Below, one piece after another: positions 6,101 to 31,481 of a stretch of 51,468 nucleotides of DNA. Numbering within the stretch: the first letter of the stretch is position 1; each line of letters opens with the position of its first letter. The DNA comes from Escherichia phage phiE31-2: the sequence record PP988008.1. One strand, 5' to 3'. A model generated the notes under the pieces. It ran no database searches. It saw only the letters and a program-made list of their open reading frames with translations, and had not been told where the DNA came from. A program made the position numbers and the translations under genes.

Positions 6101-6682
6101 GCTAACATCTCTGAAGTGAAACAGGCTATCGCTAATGAGACAGAAGCAAGGGTGCAGGCTGACCAAGCGTTAACAGCTAAGTTCGGAGACGTTGAATCTG
6201 CATTAGCTCAAAAACTTGATTCGTGGGCTAACGTTGATTCGGTTGGCGCTAAGTACGCCATGAAATTGGGCCTTACTTACAACGGGCAGAAGTACAGCGC
6301 AGGAATGGTAATGCAGCTTTCTCAGAGTTCATCCGGCCTTATCTCGCAAATTTTGTTTGATGCGAATAGGTTTGCGATTATGACTAGCTCGACTGGCGGA
6401 GTGTATACGCTGCCTTTCGTTGTTGAAAATAACCAGGTATTCATCAATAGCTTGTTAGTTAAAAACGGATCAATAAACAATGCGATGATCGGTAACTTCA
6501 TCCAATCAAACAATTACGTTTGGAATCAAACAGGATGGAGGTTGGATAAAAACGGCACGTTTGAAAATTATGGTTCTACTCCTGGAGAGGGAGCCATGAA
6601 AATGACAAACGAAACGATCAGCGTTAGGGATGCAAACGGCGTTTTGCGTGTTCAGATTGGGCGTATCACAGGTTATTGGTAA
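3104..6682 (+). CDS. central tail fiber / host specificity protein (lambda gpJ-like)
   Basis: 1192 aa ORF after I; RBS AAGGTGA; coiled-coil repeat region in C-terminal third; position in tail module. Confidence 0.85.
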   Translation: MAENMITGSKGGSSKPYVPKEMEDNLISINKIKILLAVSDGECDPDFTLRDLYLDDVPVIADDGTVNYQGVKAEFRPGTQTQDYIKGFTDTSSEVTLARDITTSNPYVISVTNKTLSAIRIKMLMPTGIKQEDNGDLVGVKVTYAVDMAVDGDSYKEVLRDTIEGKTRSGYDRSRRIDLPAFNDRVLLRVRRVTADSASSRVTDLIKLQSYAEVIDAKFRYPLTGLVYVEFDSELFPNQIPNISIKKKWKLINVPSNYDPVLREYHGSWDGTFKKAWSNNPAWVLYDIITNQRYGLDQRELGVQVDKWSLYEAAQYCDQKVPDGKGGTEPRYLCDVVIQSQIEAYQLIRDICSIFRGMSFWNGESLSIVIDKPRDPSYIFTNDNVVDGDFQYTTASEKSMYTQCNVTFDDEQNMYQQDVEGVFDTEAALRFGYNPTSITAIGCTRRSEANRRGRWILKTNLRSTTVNFATGLEGMIPSIGDVIAIADNFHSSNLKLNLSGRVMEVSGLQVFVPFKIDARPGDFIIINKPDGKPVKRTISKVSGDGKTIELNIGFGFEVKPDTVFAIDRTDIALQQYVVTSIGKGDDDDEFTYSITAVEYDPNKYDEIDYGVNIDDRPTSIVQPDTMAAPENVQISSYSRIVQGASVETMVVSWDKVPYASLYEMQWRKGDGNWLNTPQTANKEIEVEGIYSGNYQVRVRSVSASGSTSPWSRIVTASLTGKVGEPGAPVNLTASDNEVFGIRVKWGMPEGSGDTAYIELHQSPDGTAENSRLLTLIPYPQYEYWHGTLPAGHVVWYRIRSVDRIGNVSGWTDFVRGMASDDVEAVLGDILDKIFDTEAGQDLKENAIDSANKIKDQAQAIIQNALANDADIKWTRVQNGKRKAEYGHALELIATETEARVTQIEELRASIDEDIVSSIKTVQEAIATESETRATQINALDSKFTTEIDGVKRDTAASINQVNQTIANESEARAQAVNALDAKFTKEIEDLNGVIKTEVEANISEVKQAIANETEARVQADQALTAKFGDVESALAQKLDSWANVDSVGAKYAMKLGLTYNGQKYSAGMVMQLSQSSSGLISQILFDANRFAIMTSSTGGVYTLPFVVENNQVFINSLLVKNGSINNAMIGNFIQSNNYVWNQTGWRLDKNGTFENYGSTPGEGAMKMTNETISVRDANGVLRVQIGRITGYW

Positions 6683-6688
6683 AAGCAA

Positions 6689-6716
6689 AGGGAGGCGCAT
6701 TGCCTCCCTTTTTTTA
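6689..6716. terminator. bidirectional terminator between J and convergent leftward operon
   Basis: GGGAGGC-GCATT-GCCTCCC followed by TTTTTTT, A/T-rich on the other side. Confidence 0.65.
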
Positions 6717-7331
6717 TTAGTCATATTTTGATGCGTCTATAGCAAGTATTGATGAAGAATAATAAACCCCAAGCGGACCAGGCGTTTGAGCAACCTGCTT
6801 TGATATTGAGTAAATATTTGATCCAGATGCGCCGGATTGTGATTCAAATATCATGTGACCGCCAAGTTGAGGATTTGGAACGGAGTTTATTGCCGTTTGA
6901 AATGGCGTTACAGCGCATGTATAACCCAAATAAACATCAAATGTTATTCCGCTAACTGGTATTTGGTGAGCCTCTAAAGGCTTCATTTTTCCGTGGTATG
7001 TCATTTGACCAGCGGAATTATAAAACGCTATTCCGTGACTACCAGGACTTGTTACCATATCGCTAAAAGCGTAAACCCTAATCCATCCAGGGTTGTCCGT
7101 CCTATCAATCCTAAGTGCATGATAACCACCATTATTTATGTGAGAAAAAGCAGTGTATGCACGAGATCCCATTCTCACAAAGAAAAAGCATACACGATCA
7201 AATGGTATTGATGTTTGATAAATGGAGCCGTTATAAACCCCCATATCACCTCGATTAATTAAATTCACAGGCGTAAAATCAGGACTTAGCCAAATTGACC
7301 CATCCGGCTTTGTGATCTGCATTCCGTACAT
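6717..7331 (-). CDS. hypothetical protein, candidate receptor-binding module component
   Basis: 204 aa; ATG 2 nt after stop of upstream gene (TAAcATG) with GGGGG RBS; Gly/Ser/Asn-rich; convergent with J and co-transcribed with lipoprotein. Confidence 0.5.
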   Translation of the reverse strand: MYGMQITKPDGSIWLSPDFTPVNLINRGDMGVYNGSIYQTSIPFDRVCFFFVRMGSRAYTAFSHINNGGYHALRIDRTDNPGWIRVYAFSDMVTSPGSHGIAFYNSAGQMTYHGKMKPLEAHQIPVSGITFDVYLGYTCAVTPFQTAINSVPNPQLGGHMIFESQSGASGSNIYSISKQVAQTPGPLGVYYSSSILAIDASKYD

Positions 7332-7332
7332 G

Positions 7333-7608
7333 TTACCCCCAAAACGTATATATATATCTTGACTCGCCAGCATTAAGACCAGACCACGAAACAGTATTCC
7401 CGCTAACGTTTATTGTTGGTGCTCCCCAGTTAACTCCAGCCCACGTCTGCGTTCCAATATATCCAGCCTTTAATGTTTTTCCTGGTGGCTGATTGTAATA
7501 TGTCTTGCTTCCTGATGGTTGTGTGAATCTATCCAGGAAGAATACAGGAGTTAATAAACCAGTAACATCCCTTCCTTGTTCGTCGTAAATTGCGTAACCG
7601 TATGCCAT
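7333..7608 (-). CDS. hypothetical protein, candidate receptor-binding module component
   Basis: 91 aa; ATG overlaps stop of lipoprotein gene (TAATG); N-terminus resembles that of the downstream 204-aa protein. Confidence 0.5.
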   Translation of the reverse strand: MAYGYAIYDEQGRDVTGLLTPVFFLDRFTQPSGSKTYYNQPPGKTLKAGYIGTQTWAGVNWGAPTINVSGNTVSWSGLNAGESRYIYTFWG

Positions 7609-7877
7609 TATTTGCACTCCACATAATCAAAATTATCCTCGCTTTGCCACCTGTGAACGAAAGTTACATATTTTTGTGATGGAGCTACGCGATAGTGTTT
7701 TTCACCGAATCTGTTTTCGCGCACAGCGTTTATTTTCACAGGATAGCTATCATTTACAGGGAATGTTTTCACCATGTATGAGCCAACGCAATCAACCTCT
7801 TTATAGCCCCCATCCATTGACGCAGAACAACCAGTCAGGGCAACGGCGGCAATCAAAACGGCTATTAACTTTTTCAT
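7608..7877 (-). CDS. outer-membrane lipoprotein, putative superinfection exclusion (Cor/Llp-like)
   Basis: Signal peptide MKKLIAVLIAAVALTGC with lipobox LTGC; AAGGAGA RBS; adjacent to tail-tip genes. Confidence 0.6.
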   Translation of the reverse strand: MKKLIAVLIAAVALTGCSASMDGGYKEVDCVGSYMVKTFPVNDSYPVKINAVRENRFGEKHYRVAPSQKYVTFVHRWQSEDNFDYVECK

Positions 7878-7910
7878 TTTTGGTGTCTCCTTAGTTGTTG
7901 TTGGTTGCAA

Positions 7911-7952
7911 CTATACACGATCTTGCGGTGGGCGTTTAGCAAAAAGTGCCAC
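7911..7952 (-). promoter_or_regulatory. conserved-motif promoter-like element (lipoprotein/RBP operon)
   Basis: Minus strand TGGCACTTTTTGCTAAAC - 18 nt - TATAGT, then RBS and ATG of lipoprotein. Confidence 0.5.
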
Positions 7953-8062
7953 TCTGTTCTTTTTGTTCTCCTGCGTTCTCAAATCTGCGGAGGCTTAAAT
8001 TTAGCTCAAAATGTGAGCAACAATAGAGCGATATACATACAGATAAATATATATACATACAT

Positions 8063-8190
8063 ATAAATCAATAAGTTAGTAGTATATATATTTATATTTG
8101 TTCTTTATTGTTATCTATGTTTTGTGTGATTTTGTGTGTCTGGTGATTTTTCTGTGATTATGTATGTGTCAGTGGTTGTGTGTGTCTATA
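8063..8190. repeat. AT-rich conserved core plus GTGAT(T) iteron cluster, copy A
   Basis: ~50-bp core (ATAAATCAATAAGTTAGT...ATTTATATTTGTT) ~85-90% identical by eye to 30350..30399; followed by repeated GTGATTTT/GGTGATTTTT units. Confidence 0.6.
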
Positions 8191-8322
8191 TATCTATATC
8201 CGGCGCAAATTGAGGAGCAAGAGAACAAAAAGACAACAAAGATATTTATCAATCACTTACATGTAAGTTTTGTTATCAAAGATGTCTAGAACGTTGTTAG
8301 AACAGAAAAAACAAAATAACTA

Positions 8323-8350
8323 TTGACTAAACGCATCAAATAGCTACAAT
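8323..8350 (+). promoter_or_regulatory. sigma70-like promoter for recombination operon
   Basis: TTGACT - 16 nt - TACAAT about 30 nt upstream of exonuclease ATG. Confidence 0.55.
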
Positions 8351-8379
8351 GCAGACATACCAACCAATGAGGGCAAATC

Positions 8380-9441
8380 ATGAATAAGTTTATGGCGTAC
8401 ACCAGCGAAGAAATGAGCAACGAGCTTTATCACAATCCAGAAGCGTGGACTGCTGATTATGTTAGCGGTTCAAGCCTGGCAGAGATTTACAGCACATGCC
8501 CGGCAGCGTGGAAGTTCAAGCCGCGTGACGACAAGAGCAAGGCGCTAGTTTTTGGTACGCAGTCGCATACCAATTTTGAAAGCAAGGAGCTTTTCGAAAA
8601 AACCTATCGCCGTGCGCCAGCGCCAGAAGACTTTAAGGATCTGATAACCAGCCAAACGGAGCTTGCTGCAAAGCTAAAATCATTTGGCCTGAAAGGTACA
8701 ACAGGAAAGACTTACCCTGAACTTATAAAAATGTTGGTTGACTGCGGAGAAGACCTTAACGTCATGTGGTTAATCGACATGATCGCAGAAAGTCAAGCCA
8801 GGGCCGATGGGGTTCAGTTAATCGAAGCTAAAGATTACGATGCGTGCGTGGCAATGCGCCAGGTTCTGGAATCAATACCGGAACATAACGCATGTATGAA
8901 TAGCAAGACGGCACAACGTGAATTATCGTTATTCGGTGAAATCAACGGCGTAAAAGTCAAAGTGCGATGCGATCACGTTGACGTAACAAAGAACGTGACA
9001 GCAACTCTTATTGATGGTTACGATGAAAAAGGTCAGCCGATTTGCCGCGATATTATTTATCCAGAAGCTATTGTGATCACTGACTACAAAACAACAATGA
9101 GCGCTAATCCGGTTGAGTTTATGCGCCTGGCTTACAATCACGGCTATTATTTGAAAATGGCGTTGCAATGTGATTTATTCAGAAAAGCGTATCCAGAAGA
9201 AAAGCGACCTATAGTTGTGCGACTGTTAGCGCAAGAGAAGAAAGAGCCTTATTTGCCGTTGGCTTTCCGCATGAACAGCGAGCAATTGAAGATCGGGCGC
9301 ATTCAGTACATGAGCGTAATTAACCAGTTTGCCATGTGCCAGCAACATGACGTTTGGCCTTCGTATTCAAACGGTGAGCCGGAGGTTTGCCTTGATACTC
9401 CTGATTGGGTGCGACGCCAGTTTAAGCAATATCTTATTTAA
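8380..9441 (+). CDS. PD-(D/E)XK-family recombination exonuclease
   Basis: 353 aa; nuclease-like D..(ITDYK) motif; precedes Erf and SSB genes; strong upstream sigma70-like promoter. Confidence 0.65.
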   Translation: MNKFMAYTSEEMSNELYHNPEAWTADYVSGSSLAEIYSTCPAAWKFKPRDDKSKALVFGTQSHTNFESKELFEKTYRRAPAPEDFKDLITSQTELAAKLKSFGLKGTTGKTYPELIKMLVDCGEDLNVMWLIDMIAESQARADGVQLIEAKDYDACVAMRQVLESIPEHNACMNSKTAQRELSLFGEINGVKVKVRCDHVDVTKNVTATLIDGYDEKGQPICRDIIYPEAIVITDYKTTMSANPVEFMRLAYNHGYYLKMALQCDLFRKAYPEEKRPIVVRLLAQEKKEPYLPLAFRMNSEQLKIGRIQYMSVINQFAMCQQHDVWPSYSNGEPEVCLDTPDWVRRQFKQYLI

Positions 9442-19598: not shown

Positions 19599-20004
19599 TA
19601 AAGGCGATTATCTAGAGTTTTACGAAAGAGATCCGACGGATACGCTAAAAGAGGAATCACACCAGATCGGGGCGTTTCAATGGTTGACTTATGCTTACCC
19701 TGAATTACTGGCATGGCATACGAAAAACGAGGGCGACAAGGGAATCGCCACCGCAATGATGGATCAGCAAGCTGGACTCGTTAAGGGAGTAAGTGATTTT
19801 ATCATCCTGATTGGATTAAAAGGCCGTTACCCGTTCGCGGCTATTGAGATGAAACGCGTCAATAAGTCTGGCAAGGGTAAGGCTTCACCAGTCAGCAAGG
19901 AGCAAAAAGCCTTCTTGCGCCGTGTGCGTGAACTTGGCGGATTCTCTGCCGTAACATACGGATATAAGCAATTCATGATCGCTGTAGAATACATGATGAA
20001 ATAG
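19585..20004 (+). CDS. VRR-NUC domain nuclease
   Basis: 139 aa; D..(AIEMK) PD-(D/E)XK core; overlaps helicase stop. Confidence 0.65.
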   Translation: MAMTDKGDYLEFYERDPTDTLKEESHQIGAFQWLTYAYPELLAWHTKNEGDKGIATAMMDQQAGLVKGVSDFIILIGLKGRYPFAAIEMKRVNKSGKGKASPVSKEQKAFLRRVRELGGFSAVTYGYKQFMIAVEYMMK

Positions 20005-20044
20005 CACTTTTTGTTAAAACAGGCGCGAAGGATTGCGCCATAAT
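20002..20044 (+). promoter_or_regulatory. conserved-motif promoter-like element (upstream of dam)
   Basis: TAGCACTTTTTGTTAAAAC - 18 nt containing GGCGC/GCGCC inverted repeat - CATAAT; TAG is stop of upstream gene. Confidence 0.55.
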
Positions 20045-27084: not shown

Positions 27085-27127
27085 ATTATGCCAGGCTTTT
27101 ACACCTGGCTTTTAACAAAAAGTGCTA
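27085..27127 (-). promoter_or_regulatory. conserved-motif promoter-like element
   Basis: Minus strand TAGCACTTTTTGTTAAAAG - 18 nt (GCCAGG/CCTGGC hairpin) - CATAAT. Confidence 0.55.
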
Positions 27128-30349: not shown

Positions 30350-30520
30350 TAAAATCAATAAGTTAGTTATATATGTATTTATATTTGTTATTTACTGTTG
30401 AGCTTGTTCTATGGGTATATGGTGGTGTTGTATTGTTTGTGGTGATATGTATGTGTGATTGTATATTTTTTAATCAATGGTGATGCGTGGTGATTTTTGT
30501 ATGTATATATATGGGTATGG
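30350..30520. repeat. AT-rich conserved core plus GTGAT(T) iteron cluster, copy B
   Basis: Homologous core and four or more GTGAT units; lies in the divergent early control region. Confidence 0.6.
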
Positions 30521-31181: not shown

Positions 31182-31441
31182 TGAATAAGGCATTAATTGG
31201 AGTTTTGATTGCAATTGCTACCCTGACCGGATGCGAAAAGGCATCGGAATCAACAGTTGTCGTAGGAGTGGAGTCAGATTTTAAAGTCGGTCGCCTGTTT
31301 ACTGTTGATGGATGCACTGCGTACCGATTCTATGACAACGGTCGAGCAATCTATTACACCAATTGTAATGGCGCAACGGATAGCACATACCGCAGCGGCA
31401 AAAACGTAATGCACCAGCAAGTCACAACAGATATGAAATAG
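31181..31441 (+). CDS. early lipoprotein
   Basis: 86 aa; signal peptide with lipobox LTGC; TAATG overlap with upstream gene. Confidence 0.65.
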   Translation: MNKALIGVLIAIATLTGCEKASESTVVVGVESDFKVGRLFTVDGCTAYRFYDNGRAIYYTNCNGATDSTYRSGKNVMHQQVTTDMK

Positions 31442-31481
31442 CACTTTTTGTTAAAACGCCAGGTGCAAATCCTGGCATAAT
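31439..31481 (+). promoter_or_regulatory. conserved-motif promoter-like element
   Basis: TAGCACTTTTTGTTAAAAC - 18 nt (GCCAGG/CCTGGC) - CATAAT; TAG is stop of lipoprotein gene. Confidence 0.55.

What the first reader, a model, noticed from the sequence alone, without database searches (positions are those of the whole stretch)
6717..7952. Leftward three-gene locus downstream of J: lipoprotein plus two translationally coupled small proteins, a likely receptor-binding / superinfection-exclusion module
An OM lipoprotein gene (7608..7877) is followed by a 91-aa and a 204-aa gene joined by TAATG and TAAcATG junctions. The unit is convergent with J, ends at a bidirectional terminator and is driven by a copy of the conserved promoter-like motif. 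In T5-like and T1-like phages the receptor-binding protein and a receptor-blocking lipoprotein are linked next to the tail tip genes. The two Gly/Ser/Asn-rich proteins share a similar N-terminus, hinting at duplication and possible host-range diversification.
Basis: partly seen in the sequence, partly recalled or inferred. Interest (0 to 1): 0.6.

Follow-up and report, generated by a model that had tools for sequence, protein, structure and literature searches.

The report
Phage receptor-binding and self-exclusion gene cassette

Summary
The window is Escherichia phage KarlJaspers (Bas06, Drexlerviridae), 99.8% identical. The three leftward genes exist exactly as described: an 89-aa lipoprotein, a 91-aa protein and a 204-aa protein, with TAATG and TAAcATG junctions, a hairpin terminator shared with J, and a copy of a phage-wide promoter-like motif.

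This is the "bona fide RBP locus" of Maffei et al. 2021. Bas06 was shown there to need BtuB.

My tests support the receptor-binding / exclusion reading:
- The 91-aa protein is fused to the N-terminus of the 204-aa family in natural 309–325-aa relatives. Together the two look like a split version of a single-chain RBP.
- Bas06 (BtuB) and its congener Bas07 (FhuA) differ essentially only in window 6713–7826.
- The lipoprotein is a distant Cor-like outer-membrane lipoprotein, below curated family cut-offs.

No function has been shown experimentally for the BtuB-type proteins. The "shared N-terminus / duplication" idea is only weakly supported for small versus large. It is well supported between the two halves of the large protein.

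Verdict: real, correctly interpreted, already known.

The parts
7910..7950 (-). Promoter-like element. It is a slightly divergent copy (GGCACTTTTTGCTAAA, 7935-7950) of the phage-wide conserved motif, followed about 21 nt later by a -10-like TATAGT (7910-7915).
   Evidence: The motif occurs 15 times in the window against 0.12 expected. The region is 94-95% conserved with herni and Bas07, outside the exchanged cassette. Function as a promoter is inferred, not shown, and the spacing is non-canonical.
7608..7877 (-). 89-aa prelipoprotein (bas06_0026). It has a signal peptide with lipobox LTG|C (Cys17), Ser at +2, and conserved Cys30 and Cys88. It is a Cor-like putative BtuB-directed superinfection-exclusion lipoprotein.
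   Evidence: Pfam LPAM_1 matches at E 3.7e-4. phrog_1119 Cor matches at 4.3e-11 for the whole protein but only 0.025 for the mature part. NCBIfam Cor scores 19.5 bits against a cut-off of 31. It is 35% identical to herni Cor, with a shared W-x-S-x-DNF-x4-C C-terminal motif. Invariant cysteines are shown. Its first 50 nt lie in the conserved flank.
7333..7608 (-). 91-aa all-beta protein (bas06_0025), phrog_557. Proposed role: the tail-proximal module of a split receptor-binding protein.
   Evidence: phrog_557 matches at 5e-22. The AF2 model has pLDDT 80 with six strands. There is no signal peptide or TM segment. It is fused N-terminally to the large-protein family in 309-325-aa relatives. No PDB fold match was found.
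6717..7331 (-). 204-aa two-domain beta-sandwich protein (bas06_0024), phrog_425. Proposed role: the BtuB-binding part of the RBP.
6687..6711 (.). Hairpin terminator shared by the convergent J gene and the three-gene unit.
   Evidence: It also marks the left recombination boundary of the cassette: homology to Bas07 ends at 6712.
6470..6679 (+). Last 70 codons of the J-like tail tip protein. Proposed role: docking domain for the small+large pair.
   Evidence: This segment is 94-96% identical between Bas06 (BtuB), Bas07 (FhuA) and herni, although their cassettes differ. In Dhillonvirus, PTXU06 (pair-type) and Oekolampad (single-chain LptD RBP) have J proteins 98% and 90% identical upstream but only 43% identical in the last 70 aa. 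The PTXU06 tip is 64% identical to KarlJaspers, against 31-33% for the rest of J. The docking role is inferred.

Best explanation
The locus is the BtuB-type host-recognition cassette of a T1-like siphovirus.

Shown:
- Three co-oriented, tightly packed genes lie convergent with J. They run from a phage-wide promoter-like motif to a shared hairpin terminator.
- The phage needs BtuB (literature).

Inferred, step by step:
1. The 204-aa protein is the receptor-binding protein. It has two beta-sandwich modules and the same fold as the solved LptD-binding RBP of Oekolampad. Its C-terminal module contacts the extracellular side of BtuB.
2. The 91-aa protein corresponds to the tail-proximal N-terminal module of single-chain RBPs. 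It joins the 204-aa protein to the last ~70 residues of the J fibre. The RBP is therefore split into two chains made in fixed proportion through translational coupling.
3. The 89-aa product is exported and lipidated at Cys17. It is sorted to the inner leaflet of the outer membrane (no Asp at +2) and is probably disulphide-bonded (Cys30-Cys88). It binds the periplasmic face of BtuB and makes it unusable for BtuB-dependent phages. This protects progeny from debris and excludes competitors, as Llp does on FhuA and Rtp45 does on LptD.
4. Receptor specificity changes by replacing the whole cassette. Recombination occurs between the J 3' end / terminator and the lipoprotein signal-peptide / promoter region.
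For: Identity: the window is 99.8% identical to KarlJaspers.

Receptor: Bas06 = BtuB, Bas04 = BtuB, Bas07 = FhuA. The locus concept comes from Maffei 2021. AF3 Bas06-BtuB models are reported in the preprint 10.64898/2026.04.02.716166.

Sequence-profile links of the large-protein family to the LptD-RBP family phrog_1265: E 1.2e-3 (KarlJaspers), 2.8e-5 (herni) and 6e-3 (933W). All align to the C-terminal two thirds of that profile.

Positional equivalence: Oekolampad has J(+), then RBP 321 aa(-), then lipoprotein 73 aa(-). PTXU06, of the same genus, has J(+), then 204 aa, 92 aa and lipoprotein 89 aa on the - strand.

Natural fusions: 9 of 10 tested relatives of 309-325 aa match phrog_557 at the N-terminus and phrog_425 at the C-terminus. 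One sits directly after a tail-tip-like gene.

Neither the 91-aa nor the 204-aa protein has a signal peptide or TM segment.

Cassette mapping: Bas06 versus Bas07 has the J tip 94% identical, small 34%, large 22%, mature lipoprotein 30%, signal peptide 88%. DNA homology is lost only between 6712 and 7827.

Mobility: the cassette is 79-84% identical in a Dhillonvirus whose J body is 31-33% identical.

Lipoprotein: lipobox, conserved Cys pair, Cor-like C-terminal motif.

Precedent mechanisms: Llp-FhuA (PMC9586334) and Rtp45-LptD (10.1101/2025.07.07.663478).
Against: - No experiment shows BtuB binding, virion location or exclusion for any BtuB-type protein. The evidence is correlation, fold and analogy.
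- The 91-aa model has no structural match. Its similarity to the large protein is weak.
- RBP_Oeko shows no direct sequence similarity to either protein in hhalign.
- The mature lipoprotein is below curated Cor cut-offs.
- By gene order, the homologues of the pair in the short-tailed Stx phage Sp5 are ORF72/73. These are not among the genes essential for infecting K-12 (PMC5155283).
- Virion mass spectrometry of the T1-like phage SH6 did not list the gene at this position, ORF49. A protein present at three copies per virion is easily missed.
- One promoter driving both an exclusion factor and a late structural protein is unusual for timing.
Confidence: 0.75

Rival explanations
1. The 204-aa protein alone is the RBP. 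The 91-aa protein is an assembly chaperone or specificity accessory that is not a stable part of the virion, in the manner of tail-fibre assembly proteins.
For: The 2026 preprint speaks of one RBP plus 'one or two accessory proteins'. The 91-aa model has no fold match. Small proteins next to fibre genes are often chaperones (general knowledge).
Against: Natural covalent fusions place the small module at the N-terminus of the large one in at least 9 divergent relatives. A chaperone is rarely fused permanently to its client. The single-chain RBP_Oeko (321 aa) is about as long as small+large together (295 aa), and the large family aligns only to its C-terminal two thirds.
Confidence: 0.17
2. The two proteins are membrane-associated helpers of the Cor-like lipoprotein and belong to the exclusion mechanism, not to the virion. 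This was proposed for the T1/KanT1 cassette in PMC13164509.
For: [quoted passage not shown] Linkage to cor is constant in FhuA phages. The Sp5 homologues appear non-essential.
Against: Neither protein has a signal peptide, lipobox or hydrophobic segment; the maximum 19-residue hydropathy is 0.5 and 1.1. The fold is that of a solved RBP. The pair occurs without any cor-like gene, directly after tail-fibre genes, in 933W. Fused forms sit in tail modules.
Confidence: 0.05
3. The C-terminus of J itself binds BtuB, as lambda J binds LamB. The cassette proteins would then be morons unrelated to adsorption.
For: TolC- and LamB-specific small siphoviruses use J extensions. J-tip k-mers are predictive of receptor in the preprint.
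Against: The J tip is 94% identical between Bas06 (BtuB) and Bas07 (FhuA), while the cassette is replaced. The tip co-varies with the class of RBP (pair versus single chain), not with the receptor.
Confidence: 0.03

Closest known systems
BtuB-type 'bona fide RBP locus' of small siphoviruses (Maffei et al. 2021, PLoS Biol, PMC8594841; Bas04, Bas06, PTXU06 and relatives)
   Same: It is this locus. It has the same position downstream of the gpJ homologue and the same three genes. The phage is Bas06 itself, and its receptor BtuB was determined experimentally.
   Different: Nothing differs. The published work assigns the locus by correlation and AF3 models and does not dissect the three proteins.
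LptD-type locus: RBP_Oeko/Rtp44 plus the exclusion lipoprotein Rtp45 (PNAS 2025, PMC12685063; PDB 9RPT, 9RPS)
   Different: The receptor is LptD rather than BtuB. The RBP is one chain of 321 aa instead of 91 + 204. There is no significant direct sequence similarity. The lipoproteins belong to different PHROGs, 4281 versus 1119/27799. The J tip domain differs.
FhuA-type cassette of T1, N15, phi80, HK022, herni and Bas07: phrog_557 + phrog_425 + Cor
   Same: Both loci have the same two protein families plus a Cor-type lipoprotein next to J. The J tip is nearly identical in Hanrivervirus.
   Different: The receptor is FhuA. The proteins are only about 20-34% identical. There the pair is on the J strand and cor is opposite, whereas here all three genes are inverted into one leftward unit.
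T5 pb5 (oad) / Llp and the BF23 equivalents
   Same: The logic is the same: a dedicated RBP attached non-covalently to the central fibre, plus an adjacent lipoprotein that blocks a TonB-dependent transporter from the periplasmic side (PMC9586334).
   Different: No sequence or fold relation to pb5 was detected. The gene location in the genome differs, and the RBP is much larger (about 640 aa).

Membership tests
Bona fide RBP locus of small siphoviruses (Maffei 2021) | Encoded immediately downstream of the gpJ homologue | tested here: met
   J ends at 6682 and the cassette spans 6717-7877.
Bona fide RBP locus of small siphoviruses (Maffei 2021) | The allele of the locus matches the terminal receptor, independently of phage phylogeny | tested here: met
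   Bas06 and Bas04 (BtuB) share the allele. Bas07 (FhuA, same genus as Bas06) has another allele between identical flanks. A Dhillonvirus carries the Bas06-type allele at 79-84% identity.
Bona fide RBP locus of small siphoviruses (Maffei 2021) | The product binds the receptor and is displayed on the J tip | not testable with these tools
   This needs binding assays, virion proteomics or complex prediction. Only AF3 models from a preprint exist.
phrog_557 / phrog_425 pair (T1 ORF31/32, N15 gp22/23 type) | Sequence match of both proteins to the two family profiles | tested here: met
   E-values are 5.1e-22 and 1.5e-44, both full length.
phrog_557 / phrog_425 pair (T1 ORF31/32, N15 gp22/23 type) | Small gene directly upstream of the large gene, next to tail-fibre genes | tested here: met
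   The same order is seen in herni, Bas07, SSU5, 933W, PTXU06 and atuna.
Single-chain LptD-type RBP (phrog_1265, RBP_Oeko/Rtp44) | Fold of the solved RBP (9RPT chain C) | tested here: met
Single-chain LptD-type RBP (phrog_1265, RBP_Oeko/Rtp44) | Significant full-length sequence match to the family | tested here: not met
   Only a partial match was found: E 1.2e-3 over residues 82-168. hhalign to RBP_Oeko gives nothing. It is therefore a structural relative, not a member.
Cor / Llp-type exclusion lipoproteins | Sec/LspA signal peptide with lipobox, small mature protein, no Asp at +2 | tested here: met
   The lipobox is LTG|CSA. LPAM_1 matches at E 3.7e-4. The mature protein is 73 aa.
Cor / Llp-type exclusion lipoproteins | Score above the curated threshold of the Cor model | tested here: not met
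   NCBIfam NF047972 scores 19.5 bits against a cut-off of 31. The mature part alone gives phrog_1119 E 0.025. The protein is Cor-like, not a Cor equivalog.
Cor / Llp-type exclusion lipoproteins | Conserved cysteine pair for an intramolecular disulphide | tested here: met
   Cys30 and Cys88 are invariant in 16 homologues. Cysteines lie at equivalent positions in herni and Bas07 Cor. The disulphide itself is inferred.
Cor / Llp-type exclusion lipoproteins | Expression blocks phages that use the cognate receptor | not testable with these tools
   This needs plating assays on cells expressing bas06_0026.
T5 pb5-type RBP | Sequence or fold similarity to pb5 | tested here: not met
   There is no pb5 hit in the PDB sequence search or either fold search.

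The most novel reading that the evidence does not exclude
The 91-aa and 204-aa proteins together are a three-module receptor-binding protein split into two chains. It is homologous to the single-chain LptD-binding RBPs. If so, the FhuA-, BtuB- and LptD-specific 'unrelated' RBP families of small siphoviruses descend from one ancestor. They would dock through a conserved N-terminal hairpin onto a class-specific ~70-residue J tip domain. The same adhesin pair, 43-54% identical, sits behind the tail-fibre genes of short-tailed Shiga-toxin phages, where it may provide an unrecognised, non-essential receptor interaction.
Probability: 0.5. Interest if true: 0.45.

Novelty: already known. Interest (0 to 1): 0.25.

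Why it matters
The locus decides which outer-membrane protein a T1-like phage uses, and it can be swapped as a unit. That makes it useful for predicting and engineering host range. For this phage both the locus and its receptor are already published, so the finding adds nothing new.

The follow-up adds three modest points:
- The proteins that PHROGs/RefSeq annotation calls 'membrane associated' and 'outer membrane' are soluble tail-tip adhesin parts with the fold of a solved RBP.
- The RBP occurs in split and fused forms.
- The exchange boundaries lie at the J terminator and inside the lipoprotein signal-peptide coding region.

These points bear on a disagreement in the recent literature over whether the two proteins are RBPs or exclusion helpers. 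They also give concrete junctions for cassette swaps.

Tried and rejected
- Pfam and NCBIfam gave nothing for the two proteins.
- A PDB sequence search for all three proteins gave only chance-level hits.
- BLASTP of small against large found no similarity.
- hhalign of the shallow alignments picked out only a 14-residue hairpin, at probability 8%.
- hhalign of both families against the RBP_Oeko sequence found nothing.
- Foldseek of the 91-aa model against the PDB gave no hit below E 0.4.
- The Foldseek PCSK9 C-terminal-domain hits for the 204-aa model reflect a generic beta-sandwich repeat and were not pursued.
- Rfam on 6400-8500 gave only sub-threshold hits on the terminator hairpin.
- The sigma-70 scan found no canonical promoter upstream of the lipoprotein gene.
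- The virion proteome of the T1-like phage SH6 does not list the gene at this position, which is uninformative for a low-copy protein.
- Wietzorrek et al. 2006 (Rtp genome) is not held in the library.
Full report
**Identity of the window.** Megablast of window 6500-8200 gives Escherichia phage KarlJaspers (MZ501090, BASEL phage Bas06; Drexlerviridae, Tempevirinae, Hanrivervirus) at 99.8% identity over 100% of the query. The record annotates the same three genes as hypothetical proteins bas06_0024 to bas06_0026, directly after the 'J-like tail tip protein' bas06_0023.

**Check of the observation.** The ORF list and the minus-strand sequence confirm all three genes.
- The 89-aa gene is at 7608-7877. 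It has an AAGGAG ribosome-binding site and the N-terminus MKKLIAVLIAAVALTG|C.
- The 91-aa gene is at 7333-7608. Its ATG shares base 7608 with the preceding TAA (TAATG).
- The 204-aa gene is at 6717-7331. It starts one base after the TAA of the 91-aa gene (TAAcATG).
- The longer mechanical ORFs are not supported, because all homologues begin at MKK and MYG.
- Between the J stop (6682) and the 204-aa stop (6717) lies an 11-bp GC-rich hairpin at 6687-6711. It is stable as RNA on both strands (-21.3 and -18.1 kcal/mol; z -4.8 and -4.2) and is followed by U-tracts on both.
- Upstream of the lipoprotein gene lies GGCACTTTTTGCTAAA (7935-7950, minus strand). This is a 2-mismatch copy of a motif that occurs 15 times in the window against 0.12 expected. 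The other copies read AAATAGCACTTTTTGTTAAAAC, then about 22 nt that often form a hairpin, then YATAAT. The hexamer spacing is not the canonical 17 nt, and the sigma-70 scan does not call it. 'Promoter-like' is therefore a fair description, but function is unproven.
- The claimed similarity of the two N-termini is the weakest part. BLASTP sees nothing. Profile comparison of the small protein with the first half of the large one gives probability 11%, E 0.003 over 82 columns. The two halves of the large protein match at probability 88.7%, E 2.5e-6.
- A short motif, Y/H-G-x-phi-x-D/N-x-x-G ... P, opens the small protein and both halves of the large protein.

**What the literature already says.** Maffei et al. 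[quoted passage not shown] - Their supplementary table lists KarlJaspers (Bas06) with terminal receptor BtuB, Bas04 with BtuB and Bas07 with FhuA.
- A 2026 preprint (10.64898/2026.04.02.716166) confirmed the correlation in 64 T1-like phages. It showed an AlphaFold3 model of a Bas06 RBP on BtuB and described 'one or two accessory proteins' next to the RBPs.
- For the LptD-type locus there is experimental proof. Cryo-EM shows the Oekolampad RBP on the extracellular face of LptDE, and the lipoprotein Rtp45 on its periplasmic side (10.1101/2025.07.07.663478 = PMC12685063).
- A 2026 paper on phage KanT1 (PMC13164509) found no structural match for the two proteins upstream of cor. It suggested that they are membrane proteins involved in exclusion.
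- The general reading is therefore established for this locus. The roles of the individual BtuB-type proteins are not.

**The 204-aa protein.** It belongs to phrog_425 (E 1.5e-44) and has a weak partial hit to phrog_1265. It has no Pfam, NCBIfam or PDB sequence match.
- An AlphaFold2 model from an 11-sequence alignment is confident (pLDDT 88.1, pTM 0.84). It shows two beta-sandwich domains, residues ~1-95 and ~96-204.
- Foldseek ranks the same chain second with probability 0.99.
- RBP_Oeko is itself the founding type of phrog_1265 (E 2e-122).
- Large proteins of three different alleles hit that profile: KarlJaspers at 1.2e-3, herni at 2.8e-5 and 933W at 6e-3. They always hit its C-terminal two thirds, positions ~154-302 of 332.
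- The protein has no signal peptide or hydrophobic segment. The database name 'membrane associated protein' therefore has no basis in the sequence.

**The 91-aa protein.** It belongs to phrog_557 (E 5e-22). It is predicted as a six-stranded beta protein (pLDDT 80) without a PDB fold match and without export signals.
- The decisive observation came from the exhaustive HMMER search with the large-protein profile. Among 130 cluster representatives, 14 are 309-325 aa long and match the profile only from about residue 95-115 onward.
- Their N-terminal ~80 residues match the small-protein profile, with E down to 6e-8. In 9 of 10 tested, the N-terminus matches phrog_557 and the C-terminus matches phrog_425.
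- One such fusion lies directly after a gene with a weak Phage_Tail_Tip match, in a tail-gene cluster.
- The single-chain RBP_Oeko is 321 aa long, close to 91 + 204 = 295.
- In the genus Dhillonvirus the single RBP gene of Oekolampad and the small+large pair of PTXU06 occupy the same slot in the same orientation. Both lie between the lipoprotein gene and the end of J.
- In the cryo-EM work the tail-proximal part of RBP_Oeko is poorly ordered, and receptor contacts include C-terminal residues.
- I therefore read the small protein as the detached tail-proximal module of the RBP. This is an inference from fusions, lengths and position. No structure comparison of the small module was possible.

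**The lipoprotein.** The signal peptide and lipobox are clear (LPAM_1). Residue +2 is Ser, which by the established Lol sorting rule sends it to the outer membrane.
- Two further cysteines, C30 and C88, are invariant in 16 homologues.
- The whole protein hits the Cor PHROG at 4.3e-11. It is 35% identical to herni Cor, with a shared C-terminal W-x-S-x-DNF-x4-C motif.
- Much of that score comes from the signal peptide. The mature part alone gives E 0.025, and the NCBIfam Cor model scores 19.5 bits against a cut-off of 31.
- It is therefore a distant Cor-like lipoprotein, not a Cor equivalog.
- Homologues of the mature part occur in 82 phage records, all of them small siphoviruses. About the same number of records carry the large protein at 60% identity or more. 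This is consistent with co-inheritance of the lipoprotein with this RBP allele.

**Comparative mapping.** Bas06 (BtuB) and Bas07 (FhuA) belong to the same genus.
- DNA homology runs through the end of J to window 6712 and resumes at 7827, 50 nt inside the lipoprotein gene. It then continues at 94% through the intergenic region and the exonuclease gene (the same holds for herni).
- Protein identities are 94% for the last 70 residues of J and 88% for the signal peptide. They are only 34%, 22% and 30% for the small, large and mature lipoprotein parts.
- In Bas07 and herni the pair is on the J strand and cor is on the opposite strand. In KarlJaspers all three genes point leftward.
- The KarlJaspers-type cassette is 79-84% identical in the Dhillonvirus PTXU06, whose J body is only 31-33% identical.
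- The last 70 residues of J follow the class of RBP rather than the phage lineage or the receptor. PTXU06 and Oekolampad are 98% and 90% identical upstream but 43% identical in the tip, while the PTXU06 tip is 64% identical to that of KarlJaspers.
- This argues that the J tip is a docking platform for the pair, and that the receptor is chosen by the cassette.

**Mechanism proposed.** Transcription runs leftward from the motif-bearing region to the shared terminator. Translational coupling gives fixed ratios of the three products.
- The lipoprotein goes to the inner leaflet of the outer membrane. By analogy with Llp on FhuA and Rtp45 on LptD, it holds BtuB in a state that cannot be used by BtuB-dependent phages.
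- The small and large proteins assemble in the cytoplasm onto the J tip. The C-terminal module of the large protein binds BtuB.
- The gene structure, the fold relation, the fusions, the cassette boundaries and (from the literature) the receptor are shown. Every binding step is inferred.

**Caveats.**
- By gene order the pair corresponds to ORF72/73 of the Stx2 phage Sp5 (933W p64/p65; the mapping is anchored by the 2,793-aa ORF80 = p72). These are not among the nine genes essential for infecting K-12. At least in podoviral Stx phages the pair is therefore dispensable.
- SH6 virion proteomics did not list the gene at this position.
- A single promoter for an exclusion factor and a structural protein leaves the timing unexplained.

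**Verdict.** The extra results are incremental: the fold link to a solved RBP, the split versus fused forms, the recombination boundaries, and the J-tip co-variation.

Noticed in passing
window 17485-48651 (15-17 copies; e.g. 20003-20018 +, 27111-27126 -, 31440-31455 +): A phage-wide conserved element reads AAATAGCACTTTTTGTTAAAAC, then about 22 nt that often form a GC-rich hairpin, then (TG)GYATAAT, and often a second conserved block TCATCGAAACGA..GAGGA before the start codon. It occurs 15 times against 0.12 expected. The hexamer spacing is too long for a standard sigma-70 promoter, which suggests an extended -10 promoter with an upstream regulator or UP-like site.
   Followed up: partly
window 7951-8379 and 30352-30461: The 430-bp intergenic region between the lipoprotein gene and the exonuclease VIII gene is AT-rich, low-complexity DNA with TGTGTG/ATATAT-type runs. 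A 110-nt stretch at 8065-8174 has a 72% copy at 30352-30461 (D6/D11). The region is 94-95% conserved with herni and Bas07. Its function is unknown; it could be curved DNA, a regulatory region or an origin.
   Followed up: no
L002 (phage 933W) 5768-6618; Stx phage records: Short-tailed Shiga-toxin phages (933W, Sp5/VT2-Sakai, phi24B and about 100 records) carry the same small+large pair. It is 53% and 43% identical at full length, lies directly after the tail-fibre genes, is followed by lom, and has no cor-like gene. By the >30% identity rule used for siphoviruses this would fall in the BtuB-type family, although BamA is the proposed receptor of these phages. The Sp5 homologues appear non-essential.
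   Followed up: partly
window 7827-7877: The right-hand recombination boundary of the host-range cassette lies inside the coding region of the lipoprotein signal peptide. The promoter, 5' UTR and signal peptide are thus shared between FhuA-type and BtuB-type phages, and only the mature lipoprotein is exchanged.
   Followed up: yes
hits H2-H5 and H12 (MG065643, MG065649, MG065657, MG065680, MG065681): Several GenBank records named 'Campylobacter phage' with host C. jejuni are 95.6-97.5% identical (97.5% for the partial H12 match) to this E. coli Drexlerviridae region, including the BtuB-type cassette. They are probably coliphage contaminants or mislabelled records.
   Followed up: no
window 6470-6679 (J, last 70 codons): The C-terminal ~70 residues of J behave as a separately exchangeable module. 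They track the class of RBP (two-chain pair versus single-chain LptD type) rather than the phage genus or the receptor.
   Followed up: yes
L003 (Salmonella phage SSU5) 4747-5854: The phage-plasmid SSU5 carries the full small + large + Cor cassette after its tail fibre and 'tail fiber adhesin' genes, all on one strand. The cassette therefore also circulates in 100-kb phage-plasmids.
   Followed up: no
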